This document shows positions 21,045-43,848 of a stretch of 64,000 nt of DNA, piece after piece. Made by a program: the position numbers and the translations under genes. The DNA lies in contig NW_026860451.1 of assembly GCF_026571515.1 (NCBI RefSeq), positions 62,001-126,000 of the forward strand, written 5' to 3'. Positions within the stretch are counted from its first letter, which is position 1. Every line of letters begins with the position of its first letter. This stretch comes from Ruditapes philippinarum. Taxonomy: Eukaryota. Below the pieces are notes generated by a model, which made no database searches, was not told the DNA's origin, and saw only the letters and a program-made list of their open reading frames with translations.

Positions 21045-21189
21045 NNNNNNNNNNNNNNNNNNNNNNNNNNNNNNNNNNNNNNNNNNNNNNNNNNNNNNNN
21101 NNNNNNNNNNNNNNNNNNNNNNNNNNNNNNNNNNNNNNNNNNNNNNNNNNNNNNNNNNNNNNNNNNNNNNNNNNNNNNNNNNNNNNNNN
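21045..21189. other. Assembly gap (145 N)
   Basis: Run of N. Confidence 0.99.
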
Positions 21190-23065: not shown

Positions 23066-23145
23066 TCACGTGATATGCAAATGTTTCTCTTTTTTAAATC
23101 ACGTGATATGCAAGTGTTTCCTTTTTTTCAATCACGTGATATGCT
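23066..23145. promoter_or_regulatory. Three 33-bp-spaced TCACGTGA E-box/HRE-containing repeats upstream of opine dehydrogenase 1
   Basis: TCACGTGATATGC at 23066, 23099 and 23132; the first copy includes the octamer ATGCAAAT. Confidence 0.4.
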
Positions 23146-24702
23146 CATGTTTACGTTTTTAAAGTTCCCATATCTAATTCTTGAAAAAAAAATGCCTGAA
23201 ACACACATTTTATAATTACAGAACTTTTAAAAATACACGCACATGACTTACAAATTTACCATTTAAAGTACATGTATTTCGATAGCGGTTATGTAATCAT
23301 AGTAAATAAGTATTATCGTGTAAGTAAGTACCTTATATGACACCCCACAATCTCAACGCTCCAATAACTCTCGCTTATTTAGGGGAGTAACTGGTTCCTT
23401 AATCATAAACAGGAGGTTTCATATGTCAAAATATTCGGTTGAGAAATGGGATTTAATTTTTGCCAAAAATGCTGGGGGACTAAGAAATCCAAGATGGTGT
23501 CCAAGATGGCCACCGAAAATATGAAAATTACCATTTTGTTATATTACTTAAATTTGCTAGCTTAAACGATTAAATATACTTGTTTTTATCATTTTGATAT
23601 CAAATAAACGTGGTTTTAGTATTCTATTAATAATATCAAACCTTTCAGTCATGAGCTTTTCAATTTTCACTAAAAGTGCCTATGATCACATCAAGTTGTG
23701 TGCACAAAAGCTTAGTTTCTGGCAGACATGTATGCTGCTGTAAAATGAAAACAATGCATACAAACAGACATTTCTGATGAATATATTGTAACTTAGATTT
23801 GTTTCATATAAGTCATGTAAATACACCATAAAGTAATAAGAAAATGAAAATTATAAACATAAAAATCTGAAATCAGTTACTGCATCCTGTCCGGTGCTTA
23901 AATTATCGTATGATAGCCATGTAACAACCATTAATAGTTATTTTGTTAAACTAAACAGTACTAAGATACTTTAAGAGGTTTGAGATTAGGTCCTCACTTT
24001 TCAGAGGCCATGGCTGTTTTACAAAAAAGTGATGTTATATTGCAAGATGGAAATAGAGCTTTTATAGTAACTAAATTAAATTTCAGTCAAATTTGACAGA
24101 ATTATTAAATAAAGGTTATAAAGTGTATATGATATTATGTAAAGAATTTTTTGAAACATATCTTTCTACAAATACTAATTAAAGCCCCTTGAATGCTTAG
24201 AGGTGTAAGATTTGAATTGTCCACGATAAAATGTCTAAATAAATGTCTTCATTTTCTTACAGCAAGTGTTCTTTTAAAAAAAAAATAAAGTGAGTGTTGT
24301 GTTCATTTAGTTTATAAAAAAAAGTATAAAAAAAATAAACGTTCCCTTACAAAAAATATTTAACGGTTGTTTGAAAAAAGTAACACAATGAATTCGTGCA
24401 TGCGCCAGTCGCTTTTTCGAAATTTTATAAACATAATTGATTTTCAATTTTAGTTCTTTTGTATGATATTTGTCAAGATATAATCAATAATCCTTCGACG
24501 GTGAAATCACAATTAAGAAAACGGGTCCTGGTCCCTTGAAATCTTTGTAGAATATAGGGAGATACAATGTTATATATTAGATGATTGTTTAACTTTAGTT
24601 TAAACCGATGTACAAACAGTAAACTAGATCTCAAAATTGGTACCCTTTCGTGAGCGTATAATGACGAATTTCTATAAATTGTCTTTTTTTGTTTCAGACG
24701 TT

Positions 24703-25935
24703 ATGGCAGGTTTCTCAGAGAGTAAGAATGTGACCATATTTGGTGGCGGAAATGGTGCACACGTCCTTGCAGGTACTTCTTCATTGGTCAAAAATGCTCA
24801 CGTGACTGTTGTTGACACTTTTCAAGACGAGGCAGAAAGATGGACGAACGCAATGGCGGCTAATGGATTTACCATGAAGTATAGTAACGGGCAAACAAAA
24901 TCCCAACCCGCTGGTGCAGTTAACTTTAAAGTCACAAAAGAAGTGGAAGCAAATGTCCGAAATGCAGACATTGTTATCCTCTGTATGCCTGCATTCCTTC
25001 ACGAGATGGTTCTAACGAACATCGCATCATATTTGCAAGATAAGTGTGTATTGGTCGGACTACCAGGTCAGGCGGGATTCGAGTATCAAGCTCTGGCAAT
25101 TTTGAGAGAACACGGGAAAAAGTGCAGTGTAGTATCAATTGAAACCTTACCCTGGGCGTGTAGAATTGTAAAATATGGACAGGAAGTCGAAGTTTTAGGC
25201 ACAAAAGAAGAAATTTATGCTTCTCAAATTGAGCAAATTAAGTCCAAGGATACTGATTCAAATTCAAGCCCAATGGGCCAAGTTCAAACAATACTCGGAC
25301 CTAAACCAGTTTTAAAACGAGAAATGAATATCATCAAATACACTTTTCTTTATAGGCCAACTGTCCATCCTCCCATAATGTATGCAAAATGGAAAAATTG
25401 GGATGGAAAACCGTTAGAAACCGCACCTCTCTTCTACCAAGGAGTCGACGAAGAGGCTGTTAAATATTTAGATGGAGCAACGAATGAAATGATCGAGGTT
25501 GCCAATGTGCTTGCGTCTAAATATCCAAACATGGATTTCTCTGGAATTTCGCCAATGAAAGAATGCTTCATAGGTGAGTACCCAGATCAAATCGAAGACA
25601 AACAAACTTTGCTTTCATGCTTGAAAACCAACCGAGCTTACGATGGTCTCGTGCATCCCATGAAGAAAACAGCAGACGGTAAATTGGAGCCAGATTTCAA
25701 ATATCGTTACCTGATGGAAGACGTTCCATACGGACTACTTATCATTCGACAAATTGCTGGCATGGTCGAAGTCAGAACACCACTAATTGATGAAATCATA
25801 GTTTGGGCGCAGGCTAAACTTGGAACAGAGTACATGAAAGATGGCAAGCTGTGTTTTGTTGACAGAAAACACGGTCGTCTTCCAATGGCTTATGGTATTA
25901 ACACTATAGAAGAATTCGTCAATTTTTTCGAATAA
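24703..25935 (+). CDS. Opine dehydrogenase 1 (octopine/tauropine/alanopine dehydrogenase family), 410 aa, single coding exon
   Basis: GGGNGAH Rossmann motif, DEAERW, GLPGQAGFE, IETLPWACRI, catalytic VHP, WDGKP..PLFYQG, YRYLMEDVPYG. A splice acceptor (ttttgtttcag) lies 5 nt before the ATG at 24703. Confidence 0.95.
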   Translation: MAGFSESKNVTIFGGGNGAHVLAGTSSLVKNAHVTVVDTFQDEAERWTNAMAANGFTMKYSNGQTKSQPAGAVNFKVTKEVEANVRNADIVILCMPAFLHEMVLTNIASYLQDKCVLVGLPGQAGFEYQALAILREHGKKCSVVSIETLPWACRIVKYGQEVEVLGTKEEIYASQIEQIKSKDTDSNSSPMGQVQTILGPKPVLKREMNIIKYTFLYRPTVHPPIMYAKWKNWDGKPLETAPLFYQGVDEEAVKYLDGATNEMIEVANVLASKYPNMDFSGISPMKECFIGEYPDQIEDKQTLLSCLKTNRAYDGLVHPMKKTADGKLEPDFKYRYLMEDVPYGLLIIRQIAGMVEVRTPLIDEIIVWAQAKLGTEYMKDGKLCFVDRKHGRLPMAYGINTIEEFVNFFE

Positions 25936-27002
25936 TGCTGAATCCACAGCTAAAATCTATGGGAGTTTTCAAAGTTCTTAGTTTGGACTTTTGTTGTGAC
26001 AGCGAACAAGAAAGCTTGCTTTTAGAGTATAATTAGAGCGATGAATTCATTATACAATGTGTATGAGTTATGAATTCAAAACATAATTGTTGCATTCGAC
26101 AAATATAGGACAATAGCATAATTGAATCAACATTTATTAACAACTTTTACCTTTGGTGCACATGTATGGTCAATTCATTAGGGCAAGTAGATATTGGTTT
26201 ATATTTCTTTTTAAATGGCAGCTTAAAATGTTTGGTTTTTTTCTTATTAGTGGTTCGTTTATGTTGTGTAGTCAACGACCAGTAAAACAGTCATATGTTA
26301 TGTTTACAAAGACTTGGTTTATTGTTGAGTTTGATTTTCTAGTTAAATTACAATCTTTGAAATATTGTCATTATAATAAACTGTTCGTTTATGTTTTATG
26401 TAGAAGTTAGGTGCATATATTTGTTTGTTGTGAATCGAGCTTTTACACATGTAAACAATGAATAAGGTGGATTGCTTCTTCATCTGAACTTAGTGGCAAT
26501 CGCTGTGGATTCGATTATGTTTTGAAACTATGCATCTAGTTAACTTAATTAAGATTAATAAAAGTCTTTGAAACATTGAAGCAAGAAGAAAAAGAATTGT
26601 TCTTATAATTCAATGTTAGTAAAAACTAAATGAAATATGTATAGGAGCCAAACTATCTAGAGTCTCTTCCACTTATTATAATATTTTGATAATATGTATA
26701 TAGAATATAGGGCAACATTATAACTTAATGTCTTTTTGTAATTAATATATTTGTTAAATGACACTGCTTTTTGTTTTCACAATAATTTTATTGTTGTATA
26801 CAAATTTTAAAATTGTTGGTCTAAAAAAAATAAAGAAGAAGAAAAGGATTTGTCTCGTTTGATAACGTTAACGCTAAAAAGGTTAAGTTATGATATGATG
26901 CTAGCTTTGAAAGAAATCATGTTAGCCTGCGTTTAATAATGTGTTGTTTCGTTTGTTGGATTTTTTGTTGTCTTTTTTCAAGAATCCTAGAAATTATCTT
27001 GA

Positions 27003-27983
27003 ACTACGTAGGAGATAAAAAAGCCTAATTAGGAGTTTACAACTCTTTCGTAGGACTTTTAAACTCCTACGTAGGACTTTTTAACTCCTACGTAGGACTT
27101 TGTAACTCCTACGTAGGACTTTTTAACTCCTACGTAGGACTTTTTAACTCCTACGTAGGACTTTGTAACTCCTACGTTGGAGATAAAAAAGCCTAATTAG
27201 GAGTTTATATCTCCTACATAGGACTTTATAACTCCTATGTTGAGGAACACTTATAAAGTCCTACGTAGGAGTTATAAACTCCTACGTAGGACTTTTAAAC
27301 TCCTTATTAGGTTTTTTTTATCTCCTACGTAGGAGTTATAAAGTCCTACGTAGGACTTTATAAGTAATAAGTAATAAAGTCCTATGTAGGACTTTCAAAC
27401 TCCTAATTAGGTTTTTATATCTCCTACGTAGGAGTTATAAAGTCCTACGTAGGACTAATATTGTCCTATGTAGGACTTACAAAGTCCTATGTAGGAGTTA
27501 TAAACTCCTAATTAGGCTTTTTTATCTCCTACGTAGGAGTTATAAAGTCCTACGTAGGAGTTACAAAATCCTACGTAGGAGTTATCTTTTTTTATAGAAC
27601 ATGTTAAATTGGCACCAGGACGCTTCCGTATCCTACGTAGGAGATAAAAAAAGTCTAATTAGAAGTTTATAATTTTTTTAGTTTTATTAGTCCTACGTAG
27701 GACTTTATAACTCGTACGTAGCAGATATAAAAACCTAATTAGGAGTTTTAAATTCCTACGTAGGAGTTTAAAAGTCCAACGTAGGAGTTATAAAGTGCTA
27801 CGTAGGAGTTAAACAGTCCTTCGTAGGAGTTTAAAAGTCCTACGTAGGAGTTAAAAAGCCCTAGGTAGGAGTTTAAAAGTCCTACGCAGGAGTTATAAAC
27901 TCCTAATTAGGCTTTTCTATCTCCTACGTAGGAGTTTTCAATTTTTATAGAACATGTTAAATTGGCATCAGGACTCTTCAGTA
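27003..27983. mobile_element. Foldback/satellite-bearing element built of CCTACGTAGG palindromic repeats, with two tandem right termini (CCGTA at 27630, CAGTA at 27983)
   Basis: Arrays of TCCTACGTAGGA in alternating orientation; GAACATGTTAAATTGGCA(C/T)CAGGAC..TTC(C/A)GTA occurs twice; left end not recognised. Confidence 0.75.
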
Positions 27984-29045
27984 CAAACTCCTTAAAGTTA
28001 ACAATTTGCCTGTTTTCATCACTTACTCATTCAAGTAGACTTTCGTATATACTTTTAAGTTGACGTTACAATTCATACTTCACTGAAGTATCAGGGAAAG
28101 AATAAGGGCTCATTTTAATAAAAGAGGTTTGTTGTAGGTATAAAGTTAAGTAGTAATTGTAAAAAACAAGTTTATAATAGTCTAGCTTAACAGTTTTCAC
28201 TATCCAATTAATTAATAAGTAATGACTAACGAATACTTTTTTTTTGGGGGGGGGGTCTCAATGGATGAACACAAGCTCGTTTTTGCTCCGGTTTACTTAA
28301 TGTGACGGCAAAGAAAGGGAATGCGATAGAAATATCATATTCAGATGCTCATTCATTGGTTACTTTTTGGTGGGATTTCATATTGTGACAACAGGGAACG
28401 TGTACGTACATAGTTGGTCATATAATCTGTCAAAATACTATTTGTATCATAGTTTGGGGACCTTTCTGTTGAAAATGTGTCAGAGTTCAATTGTATACAT
28501 AAATTATACAATGTACATGCACAGTGCGTTAACTGGAGTGCAGGTTTTAGCTTCCGGCACTCCAGAGCGTGCCCATTGACTGGCTCATTTTGTCAGGGGT
28601 TTACTTATTGTGACGACAGAGAAAGAGATAGCAATAGAAATATCATATTCAGATGTTCATTCATTGGTTACTTTTCTTATGGGGTTTCATATTTTCTAAA
28701 TTCAGTCAAAACACAAAATTTAAGTCTGCCAAAAAAGGAAGAGAATAATGTATATAATAAACAGAAAATTCAAGGTTTTTTCTATAAAGACAGGATTTAT
28801 CGATAATCATTTTGTGGTATGAAAATTATTATATGTATCACGCAACTTCACTCATGAAATATCTTTTTTCATATTTTCATACCACTTGATGAAAATAAAT
28901 CCTTTATTTATAGAAAAAACTTGAATATCCCTTTATAGTTAATATAAGTAAAATATTCTTTTTAAATTTGTCTTGGAAGTTTGTTGGAAAGATTAAAGCT
29001 TATATTGGTACTTAAGGATACTGCCCCAGAAAATATCATTGTTTT

Positions 29046-29350
29046 GAGCCGTCCAGTTAGCTCAATAGGTAGAGAGTTGGACTGTGAATCGGGCGACCCG
29101 GGTTCGATTCCCGGACGGCGCAGGTCACTTTCGTTATGATTGATCATGAAATCCTTTCTATGGTCATTCGCACTGTACATCTGCTCTGGCATGTACAGAA
29201 GTTTCAGTTCCTTGCGAAAATGGAAGCAACTAGTTACTGGTTAACCGCTTGACAACCAGCCCAGGAACGATGCGGTGGTTGAACTGTGCTCTGGTGAATT
29301 CCATGTGGCTAACTGTCGTGATCCGGAGTGAAAACTACCAACACCACCAC
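29046..29350 (+). mobile_element. tRNA-derived SINE (GTG-anticodon-like head, Meta/MESC-like central domain, CAC/CAA tail)
   Basis: A box TAGCTCAATAGG, B box GGTTCGATTCC, then TGATCATGAAATCCTTTCTATGGTCATTC...TACTGGTTAACCGCTT and a short repeat tail. The domain name is from recollection. Confidence 0.8.
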
Positions 29351-30905
29351 AAAATATTATGTTTGTTAATACTGTGTTGATATAACACTGCAGGGACAAT
29401 TTAAATCAAATGATTTGACAGACACGTCGCATTTTTTTCTCTGACGTCACTTATTACACTGATTGTGACGTAAAGTGACGTTATCGTCCTAGTGATTAGA
29501 TACACGGCATTACACTCGGACATTTATTTGAGAGAAAATGGAATTGGCAGAATTCATCTAAACACGGGAGGTAAGTGAGGCGTATATTAACGTTGTACCG
29601 TTTACTTTACGTGAATTTGTGTAAATAGCATATCCTACTTTGATTTTGGAGCAGTATGTGATAACATTAAAGTGAACTACTGTACTTACAGTGTAGAGCC
29701 TTGGTCCGAAGGTTATAAAGAAATTCTCTAAGCTCAATCTCAGATCATGTATATCTGATAGGTCAGAAACTGCCATATAATGTACATTTACTATTGGAAT
29801 TCCCGAGGTTTTAGACAGAATTGAGAAATAATAAATAAATGTTTGGCCTGACCTCGAGGTTATAAAATATTTTTTTTCTAAATTCAATATCAAATTTCTG
29901 GATTTTTATTGGTAAGTGTACACCCTGGGCTGGTTTCTGACCATTCAGGTACTGGAGCTCTGAGTTATACATAGAAAATTTCTTTATAACTTTATAACTT
30001 TGGAGCCTAATCAGACTCTAATGATGTGCAGTTTATACTGTTGGTATAAAAGCCTTCTAATCCCAATCCCAACAGGTCAACTTTTAATATAGAAGCCTAT
30101 AGTTTGAAAACTTCTTGAAAAAAAAGTCGTTTCATGCAGAAAATATTTATAAATTTACATAAATTTAAACTAAAGTGAAGAATGTTTTATTGTACCGGAA
30201 TATATTTGCCAATATTACTCCTTTATTTCCAGTGCTTTTTAAGCTTTATATTCCATAATGTGCTTAAAATGTTCACAAAACATTCTTATAGATATAAGTA
30301 CTGTAGCATTAAAACTAAGTTACTCCTGTAAGTAATAATTAAAGATAGATATAAATGATATATGCCAAAATAAATGTTTAAAAACTAAAAGTTTTGATAA
30401 GTTTATTATTCAAATTACATAAGACCATATAACCGGTGAAGATATACAATACAACATATATATGGCTAGCCAGCGTTCAAAAATAAATTTGCAAACAAGA
30501 TTTAAACAACAACGGAGAAAGTTAACATTCATTTACATGTTAAAACATCTTAGTATTAATGATCTATTTCTTATAATATCTAAATGTTTATAAAATTATG
30601 TAGGTGGTGTATTCTATAAACTACCCCTGCTCTTCCTTGTTACGAAGTAACTATGTAAATTAGATATAAGAGTCATTATATAAACTAGTCATACTAGTTA
30701 AAAAAAAAAACCCAGATCCACAGCAATATTATATAGAGTTTTCGGTATTGTTGCTAAACACATTATTTAATTTCAATATAATTGAGCCGCGTCACAACAA
30801 AACCAACATAATGGGTTTTAATCCGTGTAATTTCGATCAAAAACAAAGTAAGTACATATTGTTAAGGTACATTTCAATTTCTTCTTGAACCAGGCCATAA
30901 CAAAT

Positions 30906-31105
30906 GAGCCGCGTCACGACAAAACCAATATAATGGGTTTGCGACCAGCATGGATCCAGACCAGCCTGCGCATCCCAACCCTATTACAAGTACAGGAACT
31001 GATAGCGAACAGCATGGATCCTGATCAGACTGCGCGGATGCGCAGGCTGGTCTGGATCCATGCTGGTCGCAAACCCATTATGTTGGTTTTGTCGTGACGC
31101 GGCTC
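30906..31105. mobile_element. Palindromic MITE with GAGCCGCG termini and 4-bp AAAT TSD (Sola-like); partial copy at 30784-30818
   Basis: ~60-bp TIRs GAGCCGCGTCACGACAAAACCAA...; AAAT on both flanks; second full copy at 57414. Confidence 0.85.
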
Positions 31106-31587
31106 AAATAAAAATTAAAGGAACGTAAACTTACAAAGTGGTCTTAAATAAAACGTTATAATCTTAAACCCAGTAAATTATTAAAGGAGCTGAGGTCCGA
31201 ATATATATATGAAAACATGAAATTTAAAATTCTTACATAGGTCAACTTGTGAGCTTGAAATAGAAAAAAATATGCAAAAGATAAATTTAGAATTATTCTC
31301 GAAATTAAATTGAAAGTCAATTTTTGTGCGATATTTAGTCTGATTAAAAGCATTTAAAGACATTTCAATTTTATATCATTTAGCACAATTAGAACTAACG
31401 TGCTGGAGCAAATGATGAGAAATTTTGCACACAAGTTACTACTCTAGTCCTTAATCAAGGTCAAATGCACAAGTCTCGAACAAAAATATTTCCAATCCCT
31501 TTATGTGAAATAAACTCACTTTTGTCACTTTAAGACGATAGTTTTTAGTTTGTAAATGTGTCAGGAAAACGTGTTTCTCTTACAGTT

Positions 31588-33093
31588 ATGGCTATGTTAA
31601 GGATAAACAAGGATCTTGAAATGGAATCCAACATCATGCGCCAACAGAAGCTCGCAGCTGGCCAGTCTCAACTAGATCGCCACATCAACAGTGTCCTATT
31701 ACAAGCGTCTCTTAGAAGACCACCAGTTTCAGTACGAATGTCTGGGAGTAGATATTCAGGAAGCAATAAAATAACGTCATCGGCGATTTCCGGTGCACAA
31801 AAAGCCGCATCAAAACTGGTATGGTCGAAAGTCATGCTTTCGAAAGGATCGACCGTAATGAAATCAACATGCTCAACACGGATGATTAAATCGCCAAAAT
31901 ATGTCGAGAAGGCTTTTCCAAATCACAAGCACGATGTAATTGAAACAAGTATTATTAGGTTGGTACCGAAATATGATTTTGAAATTCCTTCAGATCAAGA
32001 ATTTGAAAAGCTTATCAAAAATGCCTATCCAAAACCTGTGAGAAATCAAAACAATTTCGAAAACACATGTCTTACTAAATCAGATCATTCTTGTAAAAGT
32101 GCCGTAGAGTCAAACATTTATTGCAATGGTGAACTGAACAATGAATATGATAGTAATGTTAGCAAAAGACCTGATAATGAATTCCGTCAACAACTTGAAA
32201 ATGAAAACCAGTTGAAAGCCAATGTAGAGAAAGACAAAATAGTTCTTCGCGGTGTATCGGAAGAAATAAAAAATCAAGCATTGCTAACACACGACACAGA
32301 TACCACTTTGCCTGGTCATGAAATCAAAACAAGCTTTAAAACTGAAATTGATCTCGACGAAATTTATGATATTGGTTTGTTTTTTGAAGTCTGTAGCAAA
32401 CTAAATAAAGAAAATGTCAACGAAGTTTATGATATTGGTTTGTTCTTTGAAGTCTGCAACCAATCGAAGAAGGAAGAAATCGACGACATTTATGACCTTG
32501 GTTTATTCTTTGAAGTCTGCAACCAGTCAAAGAAGGCAGAAATCGACGAAGTTTATGATATTGGTTTGTTCTTTGAAGTCTGCAACCAATCGAAGAAGGA
32601 AGAAATCGACGAAGTTTATGATATTGATTTGTTCTTTGAAGTCTGCAACCAATCACAGAAGGCAGAAATCGACGAAGTTTATGATATTGATTCATTCTTA
32701 GAAGTCTGCAACCGGTCGAAAAAGAGTCATTTCGACGACGTATTTGACATTGGTGTGTTCTTTGGTTTATGTTGTGAAGCCTCCGAATTAAAGAAAACGA
32801 CAGAGTTTGATAATGCAGTTGATGATGATCCAGTATTTGATCCCAGTAACAATAACAGTAAAATCGATGTCGGCAGTGTGTTGGGACACACTCTGACTGA
32901 CACCACCAGAGAATGCACAGTTGACACTACAAGGCATGAAGTTAACGAAAATAACGAAGATGATAGCAACATGATTGATGCACAAAACATGGATATTGCG
33001 CCTTTACCTCGTCTTGATGAGAACATAGACTTTGGTGAGGATATGTTCGGAATTCTTGGAGTGTTTTGCAGAAGTGGTTTACATCAACTGTAA
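31588..33093 (+). CDS. Uncharacterised ~500-aa protein: basic Ser/Lys-rich N-terminus, seven 21-aa acidic repeats (DEVYDIGLFFEVCNQSKKEEI), acidic C-terminus
   Basis: 1.5-kb ORF in AT-rich DNA; acceptor ttacag 2 nt before the ATG at 31588; in-frame 63-bp repeats; GTAAGT overlapping the stop. Confidence 0.75.
   Translation: MAMLRINKDLEMESNIMRQQKLAAGQSQLDRHINSVLLQASLRRPPVSVRMSGSRYSGSNKITSSAISGAQKAASKLVWSKVMLSKGSTVMKSTCSTRMIKSPKYVEKAFPNHKHDVIETSIIRLVPKYDFEIPSDQEFEKLIKNAYPKPVRNQNNFENTCLTKSDHSCKSAVESNIYCNGELNNEYDSNVSKRPDNEFRQQLENENQLKANVEKDKIVLRGVSEEIKNQALLTHDTDTTLPGHEIKTSFKTEIDLDEIYDIGLFFEVCSKLNKENVNEVYDIGLFFEVCNQSKKEEIDDIYDLGLFFEVCNQSKKAEIDEVYDIGLFFEVCNQSKKEEIDEVYDIDLFFEVCNQSQKAEIDEVYDIDSFLEVCNRSKKSHFDDVFDIGVFFGLCCEASELKKTTEFDNAVDDDPVFDPSNNNSKIDVGSVLGHTLTDTTRECTVDTTRHEVNENNEDDSNMIDAQNMDIAPLPRLDENIDFGEDMFGILGVFCRSGLHQL
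32344..32775 (+). repeat. 63-bp coding tandem repeat, ~7 copies
   Basis: GAAATCGACGAAGTTTATGATATTGGTTTGTTCTTTGAAGTCTGCAACC repeated in frame. Confidence 0.92.
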
Positions 33094-34019
33094 GTATTAA
33101 TAACAGAAAATTCAGTTTGTCAGTGTGTAGTATAACAGATATATCTTTGTTATGTTAGATAGGGTTGATTCACAAATGTGTGACTAAGTATATCATAGAT
33201 TTCACAACATTACGGTACAATTACAGGATCACATTTTATCTTATTCTTATATTTTTTTTAAGAATTAAAGCAAAACCCACAAACTTCTTTTCTGGTATAC
33301 CTTAATTCATTGACGTCGTATAACTGTATCTCTTATAAGATTCTAAAAATTCTAAATAATGTTTTTGAAAACGTTTTGCTTTAGTATATACTTTTTGATA
33401 ATATCCTACAATTACCTGGTGCGTTTCATCATATTACGTTGTACAAAATAATCATTTAATGTTCAGAATAATTAGATAATCGCTTGTTCCGGTATACACT
33501 AAATATTGCTGTCCGTGTAATAGACAGGACTGATTTTGAGAATTTGGCTCTCTATAAGATGCTAGAAGCATTTTGTAGTACAAGTGGTATGTTGGTGTAT
33601 TTTACCTATTTAAGGTATGCTGAATCCGATAAAGGTGGATACCGAATTGAAAAACTTGATCTTGACCATTGAAAGGGCCATTTAAAATGCCCACTAAAAT
33701 GGCCGCCAAATTTCTTTATCATAAATAATGATGATATATCAATTTTTCTATAGGCTAATAATTATAATAGAAATATAGAAGTAATATTAAAGATGGTACT
33801 GAAAATTTTAAGGCATTTAAACGTAAAAGACCTATATTTAGGGTTTACGAACACTACTACACTCTTTCTGTCCTATCTGCTAGATATAGAGCTTTCGTGT
33901 ATTTTATCTGGCACTCTACTCTGGCTACTCATATTATACTTGCACAGCGCACGTATGTGTGACGGGATTTAAACGTGCGCATTAAACGTGGGATTTAAAG
34001 GCACCTGTCTCTGGGTTTT

Positions 34020-35200
34020 GGTGTTCGTTTTTCTGTTACCGGTTGTTGTCTCTGTTCGCTTGTTGTCAGTTCTTCTGTTATCGGTTATTGGTCGTGATTT
34101 TCGTTCTTCAATCGGTCCTGGTCTCAGTTCTTTTGTTGTCAGATGTTCCGATTTCTCGTCTCTGTTATTCTGTTATCGGTCCTCGTCTCTATTTTTCTGT
34201 CATGAATGCTCGTTTCCTTTGTCTTGTTGTCAGTACTTCTCGTATCGGTCCCTGTCTCTGTTCTTCTGTTATCGGTCCTCGTCTGTGTTAGTTTGTTGTC
34301 AGTTCTGTTATCGGTCCCTGTCTCTTTTCGCTTGTTGTCAGTTCTTCTGTTATCAGTCCCGGTCTTTGTTCTTCTGTTATCTGTCCCTATCTCTGTTCGC
34401 TTGTTGTCAGTTCTGCTGTAAGCGGTTATTCGTCTTGATATTCGTTCTTCAATTGGTACTGGTCTCAGTTCTTTTGTTGTCAGATGCTCCGATTTCTCGT
34501 CTCTGTTCTTCTGTTATCGGTTATCGTTTTCGTTCTTCTCCGTTCTGCTGTCATCGGTTCTCGTGTCTATTCTGCTGTAATCAGTCTTGGTCTCCGTTTT
34601 CTTGTTTTCAATTGTTCTGTCATCGGTTTCCGTCTCTGTTATCCGTCCTCGTCTCTATTTTTCTGTCATGAATGCTCGTTTCCGTTGTCTTGTTGTCAGT
34701 TCTTCTGTTATCGGTCCCTGTCTCTGTTCTTCTGTTATCGGTCCTCGTCTGTGTTAGCTTGTTGACAGTTTCTGTTATCTGTCTCTGTCTCTTTTCGCTT
34801 GTTGTCAGTTCTTCTGTTATCTGTCCATATCTCTGTTCGGTTGTTGTCAGTTCTGCTGTTAGCGGTTCAAGTAACTGTTCTTCTTTTATCGGTCGCTTGT
34901 CTGTGTAGCAATGTTCTGTGGTGTACGTCTCTGTTCGGTTGTTGTCAGTTTTCCTGTAATCGGTACCTGTCTCTATTCGCTTGTTTTTTTTTCTTCTGTT
35001 ATCGCTCCCTGTCTCTGCTCTTCTGTATTCGGTCCTCGTCTCTGTTCGCTTGTTGTCAGTTCTTGTCTCCATTCTTCTTTCTGTTATCGGTCGTTGTCTT
35101 CGGTCTTGTACTTTCGGTACTTGTTTCCTGTTCCGTTAAGGTCTTCTCTTGTTTCTATCGTTGCCGTCATTCTGTGCTGATGTCCTGGTTTGTCAGTCTT
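34020..35200. repeat. Degenerate pyrimidine-rich complex minisatellite (CTGTTATCGGTCC / GTCTCTGTTC / TTGTTGTCAGTTCTT modules)
   Basis: Shuffled short modules; direct duplication of ~34164-34410 at ~34630-34865. Confidence 0.85.
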
Positions 35201-35220
35201 GTAGTCATTTATTCGTTCAG

Positions 35221-35294
35221 TGGAGTAGCGGGGGATCGAACTCACGACCCCTTGATTTGAAGGCAGACAGTGTTACCACTGCACCATAGCGCCC
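35221..35294 (-). mobile_element. tRNA-like (SINE head) sequence with A/B boxes and TCA in the anticodon loop
   Basis: Minus strand reads GGCGCTATGGTGCAGTGGTAACAC...CTTCAAA...GAGTTCGATCCCCCGCTACTCCA; stems are poorly paired. Confidence 0.65.
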
Positions 35295-37890
35295 GCTCAG
35301 AATAATAACTATGTTTGAAAGTCCTTTATACTTTAAAAACTATTTCAATGGCAAACAAAGGGTGTATTACAATTATATTTTAACACCTCTACTATGTAGC
35401 CAACCCACGTGACTTTTTTATATTGGCAAAGAAAATATTACTCGATTTATTACAAGTAATATTTTTAAAAATAACTTTGCAGTTACTTTAAGATATTCCA
35501 GACATTTATTGGAGGGTACCCGGAATTCTAATGTATATCAAATGATGTGATAATCTTCTTGTAGAATTTTCTTAAAACCGTGACTGAATTCCAAAATTTT
35601 CGAGAGCTGCCATGGTATAACAAGCACACGTAGCAATCTCCCGGTTTCAGACATTTCATAACTCGATGAAAATATGGTGTTGTTATTGTTGTTATCAAAA
35701 ACTTACATGCATCATACATGTGTAATGTTCACAATGTGCTGAAAAAACGGCTCTTTATTAATTTCAACATTTCAGCAAGTGACACATTTTATATCAGAAT
35801 GGGACAGAAATGTTGTTCTAACCATTTAAAATTTAGGATTTGTAAATTTGTAAGTTGGATATTTTTTACCTAGTTTGCTCATCACTTAATTCACATTTTT
35901 ATATATAAACCTGAGGTACAGAAAATAGACAGAAAACAACTGTCATAGATTGAGATAGAGCCATAGTGTCGTAGATATTTGGGTTACAAAAGGAGTTTTT
36001 GATCCTGATAATGTTTTAAGTACATGTACAGGATAAACATATTATAAGCCAATATTCTTAAAATTTTAACTGCCTTTATTCATATTTTTTTTTTAAATAC
36101 GTGCAATTATGTAATTATTTTGTCTTTAGTTAATAGTTTCTGGAGAAAAGGCTTAACAAAGGTGATATCTTTTATTTTATAGATAAATTTTATAATGTGT
36201 CACATGTCGACTTTAAAAAAAAATTGTGGGGGTTTATCGCATACTTAGTCCCGCTTTTGCATGTTGGAACATCTATATTTTATTTGTTTGTATACACAGC
36301 CTAATTGCTTATTTGTATAGTCTTATTTTATTGACCTGTCAATTGTGAATACCTTACAACACTCATTGAAATATTAGATTCCACTTAGATTTCGTGAGTA
36401 AAGTTTACGAGAAATAATATGGAGTACATGTATAAAGAGGATATTTGTTTGTCTGTGTGTAAGATGAAATTTTATTTCATCGAGTGGGCTTTAAAAACAG
36501 TATTCCAACGAGTGGCGTAGCACATCTGACACAACAAACAAACACATTTTCTTTTTATTTTATGCTTAAAAATAAGTTAAAACGAAATTTCCTTGATATT
36601 AACTTTAATATTAAAATCTGTTTTCCCCACTGGTAGCCTCTATTATGTACATGTATTAGTCGAATTTCTCATAAAATACAAGAAATCTTGGGCTGAAAAA
36701 TAAGTTCGACAATCAACGTTAAATTGCGATGATATTATTCATTTGAATGATCGCTTATTTTAATAATAAAAACAAACAATTTTAGTAGGAGAAAAAGTCC
36801 AACCATCCATCCATATTTCTGTTACTTACTGCGAATTTATATCAGACCTGGCTCTGTTAAATGTAAGCGGCGGCCATTTTTAAAAGATGTGTATTTCAAG
36901 GGAGGAAAATAATTGTGTTTGATTTAGAGGGATATCGTTTGGATTTGTTAGTCATACACCTTTTTAAAAGAAAGAAAACTTATTTGAGGATTGTAACAGA
37001 CAATAAATAAGTGTTGACAGATGTGTAAACATTTAAAAAGTGGCTAGGAAATTGGAAACTTGGAATTGTTGAAAGGCTGCCTTATTTCGTTTTAACGAAA
37101 TATAAAATCTTTATTACGAAATATTGATTCGTTATTACGAAATATTATTCCGTAATTACGAAATTCGTAATAACGAAATATTAATATGATATTACGAAAT
37201 ATTTATTCTGTGATTATATTTATTAAGAAGGATTTTGAAACTAAGTACATGTATATTGTTAAATATAAGTCAAGTAAACAAAACATAAAAAAGTGATTTT
37301 TTTTTCAATTTTAGTCTTATACCTTAACGCGCTAGTAAAACAGTACTGTGTATAACTGTTAATTGAGCCATTATGCTTATAATCGTTATATTTGGTGGCC
37401 AATCTCATTAAAATCTGATCATATTGAATAATCGTTTGATTTTGACAAGAATTATTAATTTCATCATATTGAATCATAGTTTTAATGACCTATTTTTAGT
37501 ATTTTTAAGCGGCCATTTTGAATTGACCTTTTGAAGGTCAAGGTCAATTTTATTTTCTTGGTATCCACCCACATCGTCCTCAGCATACCCATATTAGGTT
37601 CAAACACTCAAGATATAACTTGTACTATAAAATGCCTCTAGCATAATCAGTCCTGTATATAATATAAACTTGCAAATTGGGTCTTAAAACAAGTAAATGT
37701 TATAAATTCATATAATGTACAAGTATATACAGTTATACAGTTGGTGTAAACATACATATATTCCATTTCCGTAAAAATGAAATAAAATCAATGAAGAAAT
37801 CATTGGTGAATGACGATAAGCCAAATTTCATTGCATATCTAATTTTATTTTAGTTATGTTATGTTAATAATCAGGCATGCATGTATGTGT

Positions 37891-38809
37891 GAGTGTAGGA
37901 CAAAAGCCCTCCCGGACAAAAGCCCTCCCGTCAAAAATTGACAAGGCGGACAAAAGCCCTCCCGTGAAAATGACAGGGCGGACAAAAGCCCTCCCGTAAA
38001 AATGACAGGGCGGACAAAAGCCCTCCCGTAAAAATGACTTGGCGGACAGAAGCCCTCCCGTGAAAATACAGGGCGGACAAAAGCCCTCCCGCAGCAAATA
38101 CATATATGTACATTAAATAGTTTGTATTTTCAATTCAATGCACTCAACATATTAAAATTGTAATCATGAATATTTTTGTTTTCCATTGGCATAAGAGTGT
38201 TTGTATGAGCTTGAGTACATTCCTGACTGGCATCTGAATAATAAGTACTAAAATCTGTAAGTGCATATTTATTCACGTAAAAATGAAGGATTACTCACAT
38301 GTAAAGTTATGATTAATAGAGTAATAAATGATGAAAAGAAGTTAAAATTAACTAAAATTAAAAGTCCAAGTGCCTTGTAATGAGTCAATTACTTTAGAAA
38401 GTGACCTTTTTTTAAACGACATTCGTGTGAAAATATTACCTCGCTAAACATTTAATTTCTGAAAGGTATGTTCTGAATGAAAGCTGGTTCTAGCTAATAA
38501 AAATACTTAGACCAAAAGAAAACAACAACAAATATATATGTTACAAATTTAATATCTTAAGTGCGTTGAAAAAACACAGGTATGTAACATAAATATATAT
38601 TTTGTTACGGGAGGGCTTTTGTCCGCCTTGTTAATTTCACGGGAGGGATTTTGTCCGCCCTGTCATTTTCACGGGAGGGCTTTTGTCCGCCCTGTCAATT
38701 TCACGGGAGGGCTTTTGTCCGCCTTGTCATTTTCACGGGAGGGCTTTTGTCCGCCTTGTCATTTTTGGACGGGAGGGCTTTTGTCCGGGAGGGCTTTTGT
38801 CCGTTTCCC
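37891..38809. mobile_element. Mutator-like (MULE) foldback non-autonomous element with 9-bp TSD TGTATGTGT
   Basis: Inverted arrays of ~31-bp GGACAAAAGCCCTCCCG repeats at both ends, AT-rich core, G...C termini, and identical 9-mers at 37882-37890 and 38810-38818. Confidence 0.88.
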
Positions 38810-39589
38810 TGTATGTGTGTTTCATAGATTATTTTCCGTTTTTTTTTCCAGGTACAGCGATGTCCAGGATGTCAATGCTTGAATCGTGCACACATTTACA
38901 TAAAACATTTTTATTGTTATAAATCATTAAAATTAAAAAAGGATAAGATTATGTTTGCTAAACGAAAAATAGTTTGGGTTGTTTTTTTTCGTCCAAAGTT
39001 TTTAAAAACCAAAACCGACGTCAACCAAAAAGAACTTGAATTGACGCGCACTGATCATATACATGTATGATGTTTATACATTTTAATAATTCATTGAGCT
39101 GAAGCCAGGCAATAGTGAAACCATATAGTAGAAAAGCATAAAAACCGGTTGTGATGTTTCTGCTAATATGTTTTTTTCTACATAATACATGGAAACATGT
39201 ACACTTGCAAATATATTTTACGTTTTTAAGACAATTCGTAACCGCAAAATATAAAAAACACTTCTATCAAAAAATCTTGAGATGTAATTCTGATAAGCCT
39301 CTTATTTTCACATAACAATATTAAATATGATGAAACTAACGACAGAAGTGTAACATGTCAATTTTAGCGAACTAATATGACCAGCATTTTCATTGTTAAT
39401 AGAAATGAATACATGTACATAGTAAAACATGAGAATTTACTATTGTTACATGTATACCAACTGAAAATAGCGTATAGACGGTACATATTAGGGGGAAAAG
39501 CTATTGTTTATACTTGTACGACTTGTGACCTGCCCGTGCCACAAGTATACACGTTGTTGAGTTTTTACTCATATTGACTTGTAAACTCG

Positions 39590-39790
39590 GATCACATGGC
39601 TAGCTTCCTGCTTTACTAGTAGAGGAAGTCCTCAGGTAATCCTCCGTTTATTATTTCATTCAATAGTGGGCATCTAAGTAGAACCATCGACATTCGAAAT
39701 TCTATGAGGTAGATGGGCTTTCTCACATAGAAAAATGTAAATTTACTAACAGGATTCAAAACCACTACGCCAGGACAATCATGCAGTACA
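39590..39790 (-). mobile_element. Degenerate SINE copy
   Basis: GCTTTACTAGTAGAGGAAG...TTATTTCA...GTAGAACCATCGACATTC matches the 10.6 kb and 42.1 kb copies. Confidence 0.5.
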
Positions 39791-42023
39791 TTACGGCAGT
39801 ATGATCAGTCCCTATATTGTAGGCCGCTTAACTTTGGCAGTTTAATATCACCACAAACTACCAAGTAACAGTGTGCAATTCCAAGCTTAAAGCCATACGC
39901 CTCAAGATGGTAAAGTGAGAAAGAAAGAAAAATAAATAAAGTTTCAAGTAAATGGAAAGTATTGTTATAGTAAGGTTTAATGTGTCAATTCGTTATTACT
40001 GACCTTTTAAGCTGCGGAAGGATGCTGACAAAGTCGTCAGTAATATGTGTTGTTTTTTCTTTTATACACACAATATATTGTGTTCCTAACGCAGTGGCCG
40101 ATATGATATATAAATAGAAAAAGTCAATTATTTCAATATGGTCATATGTTAAATAAAACTAAACTAATTTTGCTGTATAATAAAAGTCGTAATAATTTAG
40201 CCTCGTTTCCATATCACATGCATATAGTATCCTATATAGCCTCGTTTTCATTATCTAAGTCAAAAATATCTTGATCAAATGCATATATTGTACTCCAACT
40301 GACCTCGTTTTCATTTTCAGAATAAAATATTTGATATCAAATCCATATTGTACTTGAAGTAATTAAGTTCTGTTAAAATATAAACAATGGTGGTGAGAAA
40401 TCAGACTGATTCAATTTGACTCGTACACGGCTGCAAAAAGCTATATCAGATTTGGCTAACTCCTCGTCCAATATAGTTCAGACAGCTGTGTGTTCGCCCA
40501 TAAGAATTAACTATTGTACTTGACAATGTATAATAACCTCATAAAATAAATTTGCTCTAAAAACAAACTTTTTCTAAGTTACTTTACGGTGACATTATGT
40601 CCACCAAAACGTAAAAAGTGAGTGTGCTGGTAATGTAAAAATAGTTTTATATTTTGCCATAAACGTTTTAAGATTTTACAATGTACTTCATTAAAAATAA
40701 ACAATAACTTATGTGACACACTGAAATTTCTGTCAATATACTTCTTACTTATCGTGTAACGTTCAAATAATAAAAAGTTGTACAGTATTATACACTGCAA
40801 TTTAAGATAGTTTTTATACTTTATTCTAAACATTTTTATCAGTTTTTGGTCAATTACCATCTTATAAGTCATTCTTTAGCTCAATTTGACAGCAAAAAAA
40901 ATATATACGCAAACTGTCAGTTTAAAACAACCTATGACTTTACTTTATAACTATAGCATACTTCAGTATGACCCTCATATCTCTTCAGGTCTTTTTTTCT
41001 GACGTGACTTTGCACTTAAAATTAAGAGAACTTGTCTAAAATTAAAGGTAAATACAGTACAATCTCTGTAAAGCAACACCCTTTCGCGCTATCTGACTAA
41101 TAAGAGGTGACTTAGGAGTGTTGTCGTAAACAGGCAATTGCTATGTAAAGGTTGCATTATACCAGAATTTCAGCATTACTTATTTATAATAGATTTTTTT
41201 AAACTGAGAAACAATAAATTCAGTGACTATGTATATAGCCATAAGAAACAGGAGAATTTTATTCTGTTCTGAATCGCTTTTTATTATCGGCGTTTTCCGA
41301 CATACTCAAGTAACGGAAATCGCCGTATTGTTCCGAATGCAAACAGGGATTACCATGGAAACGTTAAAATCTGACTCCCTTTTACGTTAAATCCTTTAAA
41401 TCAAACAGTACAACATTCACTGATAGCCAGAAAAGTATTCAATTGATCTTAAATCCATTTTAGTCATTTGGAAATCTCGCCGGTAAATAATCGTGTTTTT
41501 TACTGAAAGAGTCGGAAAGTTGCGACAAAAAAAATTCGTCTCTCTCTGAATTGTGACCAAGTACCTTTAACTGCAGTGTTAGGTCTATCTCCAGATGTGC
41601 ATAAGAATATATTAATTAATGTATAATCTGGCTTGTCACTTGTTTCGTTATCAGTACATGTATATATGGGACTTCACCAGGAGAAGAATTGGCAATAACA
41701 ATTTAATTTAAAAAGTAAGTTTTCGATATTTATATAAATAATTGCCTTATCTATAAGTTTACTTTAATAATTTATGCAAATTTTATTACATCATATAGTA
41801 ACAACAAATACACTGAGAATGCAATTTTGACTTTACGTCCGTCCGTCCGAAACTGCTTTTACAAACCATAATGTAGTATTTGGCATAAAATTAATGTTAA
41901 CAGTGATACGACATACTTGTAGTGTAATGTGTTGTATGTGCCAATGAAATGACCGAACCTTATTTGTTAGTGACATATTCATGCTCATCTAAAATACCAA
42001 CAACTTACATTTAACACAATTTT

Positions 42024-42058
<35 letters not shown>

Positions 42059-42104
42059 CTTGTTTTTTTTTTTTTTTTTTTTTGGGGGGGGGGGGGGCAG
42101 AGTG

Positions 42105-42320
42105 GGGGTTTAACTCACACCCACACTCCAATGGTCATATGATGACTTTACAGCTTTACTAGAAAAGGAAAACCATGTGTGGAACCTCCGACATTCCGTA
42201 AGCTAGATGTATAATTTCCTCACATGAAATAATTTAATTTCCCTGACGGAAACTGAACCCAGAGCGGTGAGGGCCAAGTGGTTTGAAGTCAACGCCCTAA
42301 ACCAATATGTCACAACGCCA
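42105..42320 (-). mobile_element. Degenerate tRNA-derived SINE with adjacent poly-T/poly-G tract (42026-42097)
   Basis: Minus strand: GGTTTAGGGCGTTGACTTCAAACCACTTGGCCCTC..GGGTTCAGTTTCC head, then CATGTGAGGAA..CTTACGGAATGTCGG body. Confidence 0.6.
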
Positions 42321-42615
42321 AACAATGAAACTTTCTTAACAACTCTTATGAATATATCAATGAGACAAAAGAGAAAGGACTCGAGCAACATTTAGACATG
42401 GAACTATAATTTGGAGTTTCAGGAATATGAATATTTTAGATATCAAAATAAAAAATAATAAAATAATAAATTACGAAACTGCTCGACTGTCTCTATAATA
42501 ACTGGTAATATTGTTTAAATATATTTTCTACTTTTGAATGAATACGTACAGTATTCATATGTTAGGGGCTTTAAAATATTAATATAGACCATATTTTATA
42601 TAATTCACAGGGACA

Positions 42616-43848
42616 ATGACAGAGTTTTCTGATAAAGTTAACATTACAATTTGTGGTGGCGGGAATGGTGCCCATACTCTGGCAGGAATATCATCTCTGG
42701 TTCCCAACGCTTGCGTTACTGTTGTTGACGTGTTCGAAAACGAGGCTGAAAGATGGACGAACGCTTTGGCCAATTACGGTTTCACTGTGAGGTTCAGCAA
42801 AGACGTAATGTTACACCAGAAGCCGGGGAAAGTCAAATTCCGTGTAACAAACGATGTGGAAAGCGTTGTTCCCCATTCAGACATTTTAATCATCTGTGTC
42901 CCGGCTTACACGCACGAAATTTATCTAAATCTTATATCACCTTACGTACCAGAAACGTGTCCAGTTGTAGGAATGCCTGGTCAACCAGGCTTTGAGTATC
43001 AAGCATTGACCATCTTGCAGGAACACGGCAGAAAATGTAAAGTAATGTCTATTGAAACGCTTCCATGGGCATGCAGAATATCCAAGTATGGACAGGAAGT
43101 AGACGTTGTCGGGACAAAAGAAGAAGTTTGCTATACTCTGATCGACAAGCTGTCAAAGGGCAATCCGTCCAAAAGGTTGGATCCTGTTTCGGTGCTTCAA
43201 ACAATATTAGGCAAGAAACCCCAACTCGCCAAAGAGGAGAATATGCTGAAGTATACTTTTCTCTGTAGGCCGACCATTCATCCTCCGATAATGTATGCAC
43301 GATGGAAAAATTGGGACGGTAAGCCTTTGGATAAGCCGCCATTATTCTACCAAGGAGTTGATGAAGACTCAGTTAGGTATATGGACGGCGTCACGGATGA
43401 ATCTGTCAAGATTGCCGCTGCTGTTACAGAGATATTTCCAAGCATGGATTTCTCGGGAGTTTCAACGATGCAAGAATGGTTACTGGATCATTACACAGAT
43501 CAGATCACCAACAAACAGACGCTCCTGACTTGTTTACAGACAAACAAGGCGTATGATGGCCTTTTACACCCAACAACAAAAACAGCCGATGGTAAGTATG
43601 TGCCGGATTTCACCTACCGCTACATTAGAGAAGATGTTCCCTATGGATTGATAGTGGTACGTCAAATAGCCGACTTCGTTGGAGTGGAAACGCCAGTAAT
43701 TGACGAAATCATCTTGTGGGCACAAGAAAAGCTGGGAAAACAGTTCATTCAACATGGAAAGCTGTGCAAACTGGACCGTACCGACGGCAGACTTCCTATG
43801 ACCTATGGTATTAATACAATCGAGGATTTTTTCAACTTTTTCAAATAG
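42616..43848 (+). CDS. Opine dehydrogenase 2, paralog of 24703-25935, 410 aa, single coding exon
   Basis: CGGGNGAHTLAG, EAERW, PGQPGFE, IETLPWACRI, IHPP, PLFYQG, YRYIREDVPYG. Acceptor ttcacag lies 5 nt before the ATG. Confidence 0.95.
   Translation: MTEFSDKVNITICGGGNGAHTLAGISSLVPNACVTVVDVFENEAERWTNALANYGFTVRFSKDVMLHQKPGKVKFRVTNDVESVVPHSDILIICVPAYTHEIYLNLISPYVPETCPVVGMPGQPGFEYQALTILQEHGRKCKVMSIETLPWACRISKYGQEVDVVGTKEEVCYTLIDKLSKGNPSKRLDPVSVLQTILGKKPQLAKEENMLKYTFLCRPTIHPPIMYARWKNWDGKPLDKPPLFYQGVDEDSVRYMDGVTDESVKIAAAVTEIFPSMDFSGVSTMQEWLLDHYTDQITNKQTLLTCLQTNKAYDGLLHPTTKTADGKYVPDFTYRYIREDVPYGLIVVRQIADFVGVETPVIDEIILWAQEKLGKQFIQHGKLCKLDRTDGRLPMTYGINTIEDFFNFFK

What the first reader, a model, noticed from the sequence alone, without database searches (positions are those of the whole stretch)
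24703..43848. Pair of intronless opine dehydrogenases with an Arg-Pro loop beside the catalytic His: possibly new opine specificity
Seen: both are 410 aa and keep residues equivalent to Pecten maximus octopine dehydrogenase Gln118, Glu142, His212, Arg324 and Asp329. The segment before the His reads YTFL(Y/C)RPT(V/I)HP; my recollection of scallop OcDH here is LIMSYSFVHP. Established: this loop helps set amino-acid substrate choice among octopine/alanopine/strombine/tauropine dehydrogenases. Inference: a shared Arg would disfavour arginine and favour an anionic substrate (taurine, beta-alanine or an acidic amino acid), and Tyr vs Cys suggests the paralogs differ in substrate.
Basis: partly seen in the sequence, partly recalled or inferred. 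Interest (0 to 1): 0.7.

Follow-up and report, generated by a model that had tools for sequence, protein, structure and literature searches.

The report
Clam opine dehydrogenase pair, known clade
Two neighbouring clam genes encode ordinary members of a known family of low-oxygen fermentation enzymes; the flagged loop is already present, letter for letter, in a public surf-clam sequence named octopine dehydrogenase, so a new chemistry is unlikely, although the two copies likely use different amino acids.

Summary
In detail: two 410-aa opine dehydrogenases, 60% identical, keep Gln118, Glu142, His212, Arg324 and Asp329 and carry YTFL(Y/C)RPT(V/I)HP. "Intronless" is true only of the coding sequence; both genes have a 5' UTR intron.

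The novelty claim mostly fails. The public surf-clam "octopine dehydrogenase" (Q5NT49) has the identical YTFLYRPTVHP and is the orthologue of gene 1 (73% identical, bootstrap 100). A basic residue at this site is common (Lys 118, Arg 18 of 266 relatives), and Lys occurs in enzymes named alanopine, tauropine and beta-alanopine dehydrogenase. The limpet tauropine and beta-alanopine enzymes share one loop. Both clam enzymes keep Glu142, have acidic residues on the facing helix and lack the Arg that gives bacterial enzymes their Asp preference.

The larger difference between the paralogues lies elsewhere: gene 1's clade alone replaced Trp278 with Cys and gained Glu282. Best reading: gene 1 likely uses arginine through a remodelled pocket; gene 2 likely uses a small amino acid. 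No assay of this clade was found, and the surf-clam name may rest on homology. Interest 0.25.

The parts
20136..20169 (+). Gene 1, non-coding 5' exon (3' part; its start was not determined)
   Evidence: Loose 5' ends of contigs in 3 of 3 contig runs map here with 1 mismatch; GT donor at 20170
20170..24697 (+). Gene 1, 5' UTR intron (GT..AG); holds the N stretch 21045-21189
24703..25935 (+). Gene 1 coding sequence, 410 aa opine dehydrogenase (P0001), orthologue of surf-clam Q5NT49
25351..25368 (+). Gene 1 loop Tyr217-Arg218-Pro219-Thr-Val-His222 (Pecten 207-212)
25564..25578 (+). Gene 1 helix Cys288-Phe-Ile-Gly-Glu292 (Pecten Trp278 to Tyr282): the clade-specific pocket change
25936..26839 (+). 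Gene 1 3' UTR up to a poly(A) loose end
   Evidence: Contigs to 26796 (X2) and 26839 plus an A run (X3)
41678..41714 (+). Gene 2, non-coding 5' exon (part seen)
   Evidence: (X1 joint; X3 loose end), donor seen
41715..42610 (+). Gene 2, 5' UTR intron, 896 bases, GT..AG
   Evidence: one contig
42616..43848 (+). Gene 2 coding sequence, 410 aa opine dehydrogenase (P0002)
43264..43281 (+). Gene 2 loop Cys217-Arg218-Pro219-Thr-Ile-His222
43477..43491 (+). Gene 2 helix Trp288-Leu-Leu-Asp-His292 (Trp and His as in the sister clades)

Best explanation
The two genes encode members of the invertebrate opine dehydrogenase family that likely condense pyruvate with an amino acid using NADH, gene 1 likely with arginine (octopine) and gene 2 likely with a small amino acid such as alanine or glycine. 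Shown: family, intact catalytic residues, spliced forms in public contigs, orthology of gene 1 to the surf-clam entry named octopine dehydrogenase, and an Arg-Pro loop shared by a clam clade. Inferred: the pair is an old tandem duplication that predates the venerid-mactrid split. Arg-Pro is a conservative descendant of the common molluscan Lys-Ser/Ala. In gene 2 the Arg would act like that Lys, filling the side-chain channel near Glu147 and leaving room for a small substrate. In gene 1 the opposite wall was rebuilt (Trp288 to Cys, His292 to Glu, Tyr at 217), which would add room and a negative charge and so re-admit a long cationic side chain. Mechanism by family knowledge: NADH binds, then the amino acid closes the two domains, then pyruvate binds; the His-Asp pair relays protons and the imine is reduced, regenerating NAD+ during anoxia. 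Family membership is about 0.95 sure; the score given is for the whole statement including the substrate split.
For: Q5NT49/BAD81062 (P0013, named octopine dehydrogenase, Pseudocardium sachalinense) has the identical loop, is 73.3% identical to gene 1 and matches it at all 28 positions tabulated; clade bootstrap 100. Arg-Pro clade of 16 sequences, bootstrap 98, nested in a clade (bootstrap 100) whose other 7 members have Lys at 208. Mactra antiquata ACF0H5_003925 and _003926 have consecutive locus tags and are closest to gene 1 (72.5%) and gene 2 (66.3%). In scallop OcDH the guanidinium group is held by the side chains of Glu142 and Trp278, while 206-208 contribute backbone contacts (PMC2924402, passages). 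Trp278 is kept in 248 of 266 relatives; Cys278 occurs in 6 and Glu282 in 6, the same six, all in gene 1's clade. Tyr217, Cys288, Phe289 and Glu292 are among 16 fixed differences between the two groups. Limpet tauropine and beta-alanopine dehydrogenases have one loop and differ only from position 273 on, 11 of 20 differences within 273-290, which points to this helix as a second selector. Asp38 aligns with ArODH Asp34 and position 39 is not Arg, Arg there being the NADPH mark in PMC10787698 (passage). The AlphaFold model of gene 1 (pLDDT 95.7) has scallop OcDH as best fold match (TM 0.84).
Against: No assay of any Arg-Pro enzyme was found. The name of Q5NT49 comes from its depositor; from memory the cDNA work called such genes 'presumably' opine dehydrogenases, and the paper is not held. 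All 5 other OcDH-named entries have Tyr or Asp at 208, none a basic residue, while 5 of 12 entries named for other substrates have Lys. Gene 1 has lost Trp278, which contacts the guanidinium group in scallop. Published trees group these enzymes by organism, not substrate (PMC11084901, passages), so names transfer poorly. I could not read atomic coordinates, so the direction of the Arg218 and Glu292 side chains is not shown. The gene-2-like sequences are not one clade, the Mactra pairing with gene 2 rests on identity and adjacency, and the Mercenaria relative of gene 2 has Ile in place of the Arg. The identical first 272 residues of the two limpet entries could be a cloning artefact.
Confidence: 0.5

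Rival explanations
1. Both enzymes take small neutral amino acids (alanopine/strombine type). Arg218 plugs the channel in both, and the surf-clam entry is misnamed by homology.
For: Lys at 208 in Crassostrea AlDH1, AlDH2 and Fusitriton AlDH; no basic residue in 5 of 5 scallop and cephalopod OcDH. Loss of Trp278 in gene 1. From memory, venerid clams are known for alanopine and strombine dehydrogenase activity (recalled; not found).
Against: It leaves the fixed Cys288/Glu292/Tyr217 set of gene 1's clade unexplained. The depositor chose 'octopine'. The genome search found no intact scallop-type copy that could supply octopine activity: that paralogue has Asn for the catalytic His and in-frame stops; this matters only if the species makes octopine, which I could not establish.
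Confidence: 0.25
2. One reading: Arg218 binds the anionic end of taurine or beta-alanine, so one or both are tauropine or beta-alanopine dehydrogenases (known activities).
For: Lys208 in Cellana TaDH and beta-AlDH and in Haliotis relatives. Position 208 is a tested specificity site in bacterial enzymes.
Against: The tauropine-named entries have Lys281 (Cellana) or lose Glu142 to Val (Arabella, the only Val in 266). The window enzymes keep Glu147 and have Gly/Glu or Asp/His at 281/282, an acidic wall. The loop does not separate taurine from beta-alanine in Cellana.
Confidence: 0.13
3. One enzyme makes an opine not described in animals: from Asp/Glu through a mirror image of the bacterial Arg111/Gly198 pair (Arg now on the 198 side), or, for gene 1, from another basic or bulky amino acid.
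For: Arg218 sits at the ArODH-198 position facing Gln123 (ArODH 111). The Cys278/Glu282 pocket is seen in no other relative retrieved.
Against: The Asp-preferring enzymes have Arg at 111 with Gly at 198 and a positively charged cleft; here 111 is Gln and the cleft keeps or gains acids. A basic residue at 208 is found in 136 of 266 relatives (62 of 161 after thinning at 80% identity), so it cannot mark a rare chemistry by itself.
Confidence: 0.08

Closest known systems
Octopine dehydrogenase of the surf clam Pseudocardium (Spisula) sachalinense, Q5NT49 / BAD81062.1 (P0013)
   Same: Orthologue of gene 1: 73.3% identical, identical YTFLYRPTVHP, same Cys278/Gly281/Glu282.
   Different: 59% identical to gene 2, which has Cys207, Trp278, Asp281, His282. 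Whether the name rests on an assay is not established here.
Pecten maximus octopine dehydrogenase (PDB 3c7a/3c7c/3c7d/3iqd, Q9BHM6)
   Same: Same fold (TM 0.84) and Gln118, Glu142, Cys148, His212, Tyr235, Arg324, Asp329.
   Different: 38% identity, separate clade; loop Ser-Tyr-Ser against Tyr/Cys-Arg-Pro; Trp278 lost in gene 1.
Molluscan Lys208 opine dehydrogenases: Crassostrea gigas AlDH1/AlDH2, Fusitriton AlDH, Cellana grata TaDH and beta-AlDH
   Same: Basic residue four before the catalytic His, Glu142 kept; Trp278 kept as in gene 2.
   Different: 36-41% identity (AlDH2 not computed); Arg-Pro for Lys-Ser; different residues at 281/282.
Asp/Glu-preferring metagenomic ODHs and ArODH/CENDH (PMC10787698; PDB 1bg6)
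   Same: Same fold; the 111/198 pair corresponds to Gln123/Arg218.
   Different: Those enzymes have Arg at 111 and Gly at 198; the clam enzymes have Gln and Arg.

Membership tests
NAD(P)H-dependent octopine/opine dehydrogenase family (PF02317) | C-terminal Octopine_DH domain above the curated cut-off | tested here: met
   98.4 and 107.9 bits against 30
NAD(P)H-dependent octopine/opine dehydrogenase family (PF02317) | N-terminal Rossmann domain with glycine motif, two-domain fold | tested here: met
   GGGNGA in both; model of gene 1 matches 3iqd at TM 0.84; gene 2 was not folded
NAD(P)H-dependent octopine/opine dehydrogenase family (PF02317) | His-Asp dyad and NADH-sensing Arg | tested here: met
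   H222, D340, R335 in both
NAD(P)H-dependent octopine/opine dehydrogenase family (PF02317) | Active-site Trp (Pecten Trp278) | tested here: inconclusive
   Kept in gene 2, Cys in gene 1; 18 of 266 relatives lack it, including Arabella tauropine dehydrogenase, so it is typical but not required
Octopine dehydrogenase (EC 1.5.1.11), gene 1 | Arginine is the preferred amino acid | not testable with these tools
   Needs an assay; orthology to an entry so named
Octopine dehydrogenase (EC 1.5.1.11), gene 1 | Guanidinium contacts of the scallop enzyme: Glu142 and Trp278 | tested here: inconclusive
   Glu kept, Trp replaced by Cys, new Glu at 282
Alanopine/strombine dehydrogenase (EC 1.5.1.17/22), gene 2 | Alanine or glycine preferred | not testable with these tools
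   No sequence signature separates these activities
Tauropine/beta-alanopine dehydrogenase (EC 1.5.1.23/26) | Taurine or beta-alanine preferred | not testable with these tools
   Val142 of Arabella and Lys281 of Cellana are both absent, but neither is a proven defining mark
Acidic-amino-acid ODHs (mODH type) | Arg at ArODH 111 with Gly at 198 | tested here: not met
   Gln123 and Arg218

The most novel reading that the evidence does not exclude
One of the pair makes an opine not yet described in animals, either from Asp/Glu through Arg218 acting as a mirror image of the bacterial Arg111, or from an unusual basic or bulky amino acid through gene 1's Cys288/Glu292 pocket, found in no other relative retrieved. 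A milder and more likely novelty (about 0.35, interest about 0.4) is that gene 1's clade is a third, independent route to arginine specificity beside the scallop (Tyr208) and cephalopod (Asp208) enzymes.
Probability: 0.08. Interest if true: 0.55.

Novelty: new member of a known kind. Interest (0 to 1): 0.25.

Why it matters
Substrate cannot at present be read from the sequence of animal opine dehydrogenases: trees group them by organism (PMC11084901, passages). This pair is a convenient natural test, because two 60%-identical, gap-free paralogues share the loop residue usually blamed for specificity and differ at a handful of pocket positions (217, 288, 292). An assay and two or three swaps would say whether the 278-282 helix is a second selector and whether octopine synthesis arose more than once in molluscs. 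That is of modest interest for invertebrate anoxia physiology and for reductive-amination biocatalysis; it is not a new kind of system.

Tried and rejected
Primary papers that would settle the naming and the role of position 208 are not held: Smits 2008, Kimura 2004, Vazquez-Dorado 2011, Endo 2009, van Os 2012 (one search used a wrong identifier). Nine literature searches turned up no assay of the surf-clam enzyme, no statement on which opines this clam makes, and no mention of an Arg-Pro loop; the library lacks most subscription journals, so this is no proof of absence. No supplements were opened. From memory, a recombinant Mytilus galloprovincialis enzyme prefers arginine; the three paralogues of that species retrieved here all have Lys208, but I could not tell which sequence was assayed, so I do not use it as evidence. 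The structure tool returns no coordinates, so side-chain distances were not measured; gene 2 was not folded. No complex prediction was run, as no binding is claimed. The run search listed no holder on record as RNA. The one raw-read RNA run (X24, about 4 in 100 read) gave thin, mostly partial matches and no joint, so expression levels were not compared. NCBIfam gave no family. Earlier findings of the scan: none by sequence or by the specific words; the eight listed for 'opine dehydrogenase' concern prokaryotic and phage loci. Own slips: L004 was translated on the wrong strand (redone); support values printed were displaced by re-rooting (read per split). Rejected: retrogene origin as something special (5' UTR introns present, other paralogues equally one-exon); recent duplication or assembly duplicate (60% identity, tandem counterparts in Mactra); pseudogene (open frames, catalytic residues intact, 12 of 16 and 21 of 35 listed coding differences silent; 21 further rows were not shown).
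Full report
1. What is there. The window holds two open frames of 410 aa on the + strand, 24703-25935 (gene 1, P0001) and 42616-43848 (gene 2, P0002), 60% identical without gaps. Both pass the Pfam cut-off for PF02317 and align over their length with scallop octopine dehydrogenase; the alignment has no gap between scallop residues 206 and 311, so the register of the loop and of the 278-282 helix is safe. An AlphaFold model of gene 1 built on a 132-sequence alignment has pLDDT 95.7 and finds 3iqd, 3c7a and 3c7d first. A paralogue elsewhere in the genome (L003) is 100% identical to a public protein named for Ruditapes philippinarum, so the window most likely comes from the Manila clam.

2. Gene structure. 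The coding sequences are single exons, but both genes have a 5' UTR intron. For gene 2 one contig joins 41714 to 42611 across GT..AG. For gene 1 contigs from three studies start at 24694 with a loose piece that maps to 20136-20160, and that exon ends before a GT at 20170. The runs are RNA only by the tool's guess, but spliced joins and an A run at 26839 are what transcripts give. Gene 2's coding region was covered in 2 of the 3 contig runs. L003 and L004 are also single open frames.

3. Is the loop new? No. The first homologue search returned Q5NT49, named octopine dehydrogenase of Pseudocardium sachalinense, with YTFLYRPTVHP. Over the 266 cluster representatives listed by three searches (best 120 of 675, 720 and 667 hits, so a biased sample), the residue four before the His is Lys in 118, Asn in 86, Arg in 18, Asp in 15 and Tyr in 8; after thinning at 80% identity it is Asn 66, Lys 52, Asp 11, Arg 10, Tyr 3 of 161. 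Arg-Pro occurs in 14 of 266. In a 36-sequence IQ-TREE run these, with the Mercenaria (Ile-Pro) and Mactra members, form a clade of 16 at bootstrap 98, inside a clade at 100 whose other seven members have Lys. Gene 1 groups with Q5NT49 and Mactra ACF0H5_003925 at 100. Mactra ACF0H5_003926, the next locus tag, has gene 2's loop and helix and is 66% identical to it, so the tandem pair is probably older than the venerid-mactrid split (inference). The gene-2-like sequences are not one clade.

4. Does Arg218 mean an anionic substrate? The site matters. It aligns with ArODH Asn198, and changing 111 and 198 together switched ArODH from Phe to Asp (PMC10787698, one section and passages read). Among entries named by substrate, scallop OcDH has Tyr and cephalopod OcDH Asp (5 of 5 non-basic), whereas 5 of 12 alanopine, strombine, tauropine and beta-alanopine entries have Lys and 7 have Asn. 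These are database names, not assays seen by me. So a basic residue plausibly disfavours arginine, which tells against my reading of gene 1. It does not point to anions: three of the five Lys entries are named alanopine dehydrogenase. The Asp-preferring bacterial enzymes have Arg111 with Gly198, while here 111 is Gln123. Arabella tauropine dehydrogenase has Val for Glu142, while both clam enzymes keep the Glu. The limpet tauropine and beta-alanopine entries are identical through the loop and differ only from 273 on. In the scallop structure residues 206-208 touch the ligand with backbone atoms, while Glu142 and Trp278 use side chains (PMC2924402, passages).

5. The more telling difference. Comparing 7 gene-1-clade with 9 gene-2-like sequences gives 16 fixed differences, among them Tyr/Cys217, Cys/Trp288, Phe/Leu289 and Glu/His292. 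Trp at this position is kept in 248 of 266 relatives. Cys there and Glu at 282 each occur six times, in the same six proteins, all of gene 1's clade. Gene 2 keeps the Trp and His of the sister clades. Gene 1's clade thus rebuilt the wall that contacts the substrate side chain, gaining room and an acid.

6. How it most likely works. From family knowledge (PMC2924402 passages; PMC6033044 one section and passages): NADH binds, then the amino acid, whose side chain bridges the domains, then pyruvate, and the imine is reduced. NADH is predicted from Asp38 and a non-Arg residue 39. Inferred: in gene 2 Arg218 fills the channel as Lys would in the alanopine-named enzymes, leaving a small amino acid; in gene 1 Cys288, Glu292 and Tyr217 re-open it for arginine, in line with the name of its orthologue. 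I put this at 0.5, both small and neutral at 0.25, taurine or beta-alanine at 0.13, and a new animal opine at 0.08. No side-chain geometry was measured and no assay of the clade was found.

7. Novelty. The family, the fold and even the motif are public. The two genes are new members of a known kind. What remains open is the substrate of this clam clade, and I found no discussion of the Cys278/Glu282 change in nine searches of a library that lacks the main primary papers. Other papers seen as passages only: PMC3446923, which lists the surf-clam mRNA AB197036 as octopine dehydrogenase, PMC11084901 (passages and one section), PMC12202636 and PMC6472746. Interest 0.25.

Noticed in passing
L005/L009 (G000:C8340:342603-343814): A scallop-type paralogue about 17 kb from L003, with Asn for the catalytic His, Leu for Gln118 and four in-frame stops in its first quarter: a pseudogene or a poorly assembled stretch.
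   Followed up: partly
L006/L014 and L007/L015 (G000:C5620): Two decayed 3' fragments most like gene 2 (51-63% identity), with stops and frame changes, about 39 kb apart.
   Followed up: partly
L003 (G000:C8340:324435-325622) and L004 (G000:C15213:54662-55846): Two further intact opine dehydrogenases with the common MAKSI(I/V)HP loop, so all four intact copies found in this genome have a basic residue at 208.
   Followed up: yes
P0004 (Mercenaria mercenaria): The closest named relative of gene 2 has Ile in place of the Arg (FLCIPTIHP), a natural variant for testing the site.
   Followed up: no
window 16788-17870 +: 360-aa open frame with a partial AMP-binding domain (PF00501), probably an exon of an acyl-CoA synthetase, 2.3 kb before gene 1's first exon.
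   Followed up: no
window 31588-33093 +: 501-aa open frame between the two genes with about six in-frame 63-base repeats (32354-32764) and no Pfam match.
   Followed up: no
window 37913-38091 and 38607-38787: Two arrays of a 32-base unit in opposite orientation about 500 bases apart, like the ends of a small non-autonomous DNA transposon.
   Followed up: no
window 47056-48963: Several arrays rich in TAACTAGT (periods 20-60).
   Followed up: no
window 55763-56584 +: 273-aa open frame, basic N-terminus and acidic C-terminus, no Pfam match.
   Followed up: no
P0236, P0237, P0262: Proteins named for bacteria (Blastocatellia, Candidatus Angelobacter, Pyrinomonadaceae) are about 50% identical to a polychaete alanopine dehydrogenase, far closer than ArODH; this bears on the origin of the animal family.
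   Followed up: no
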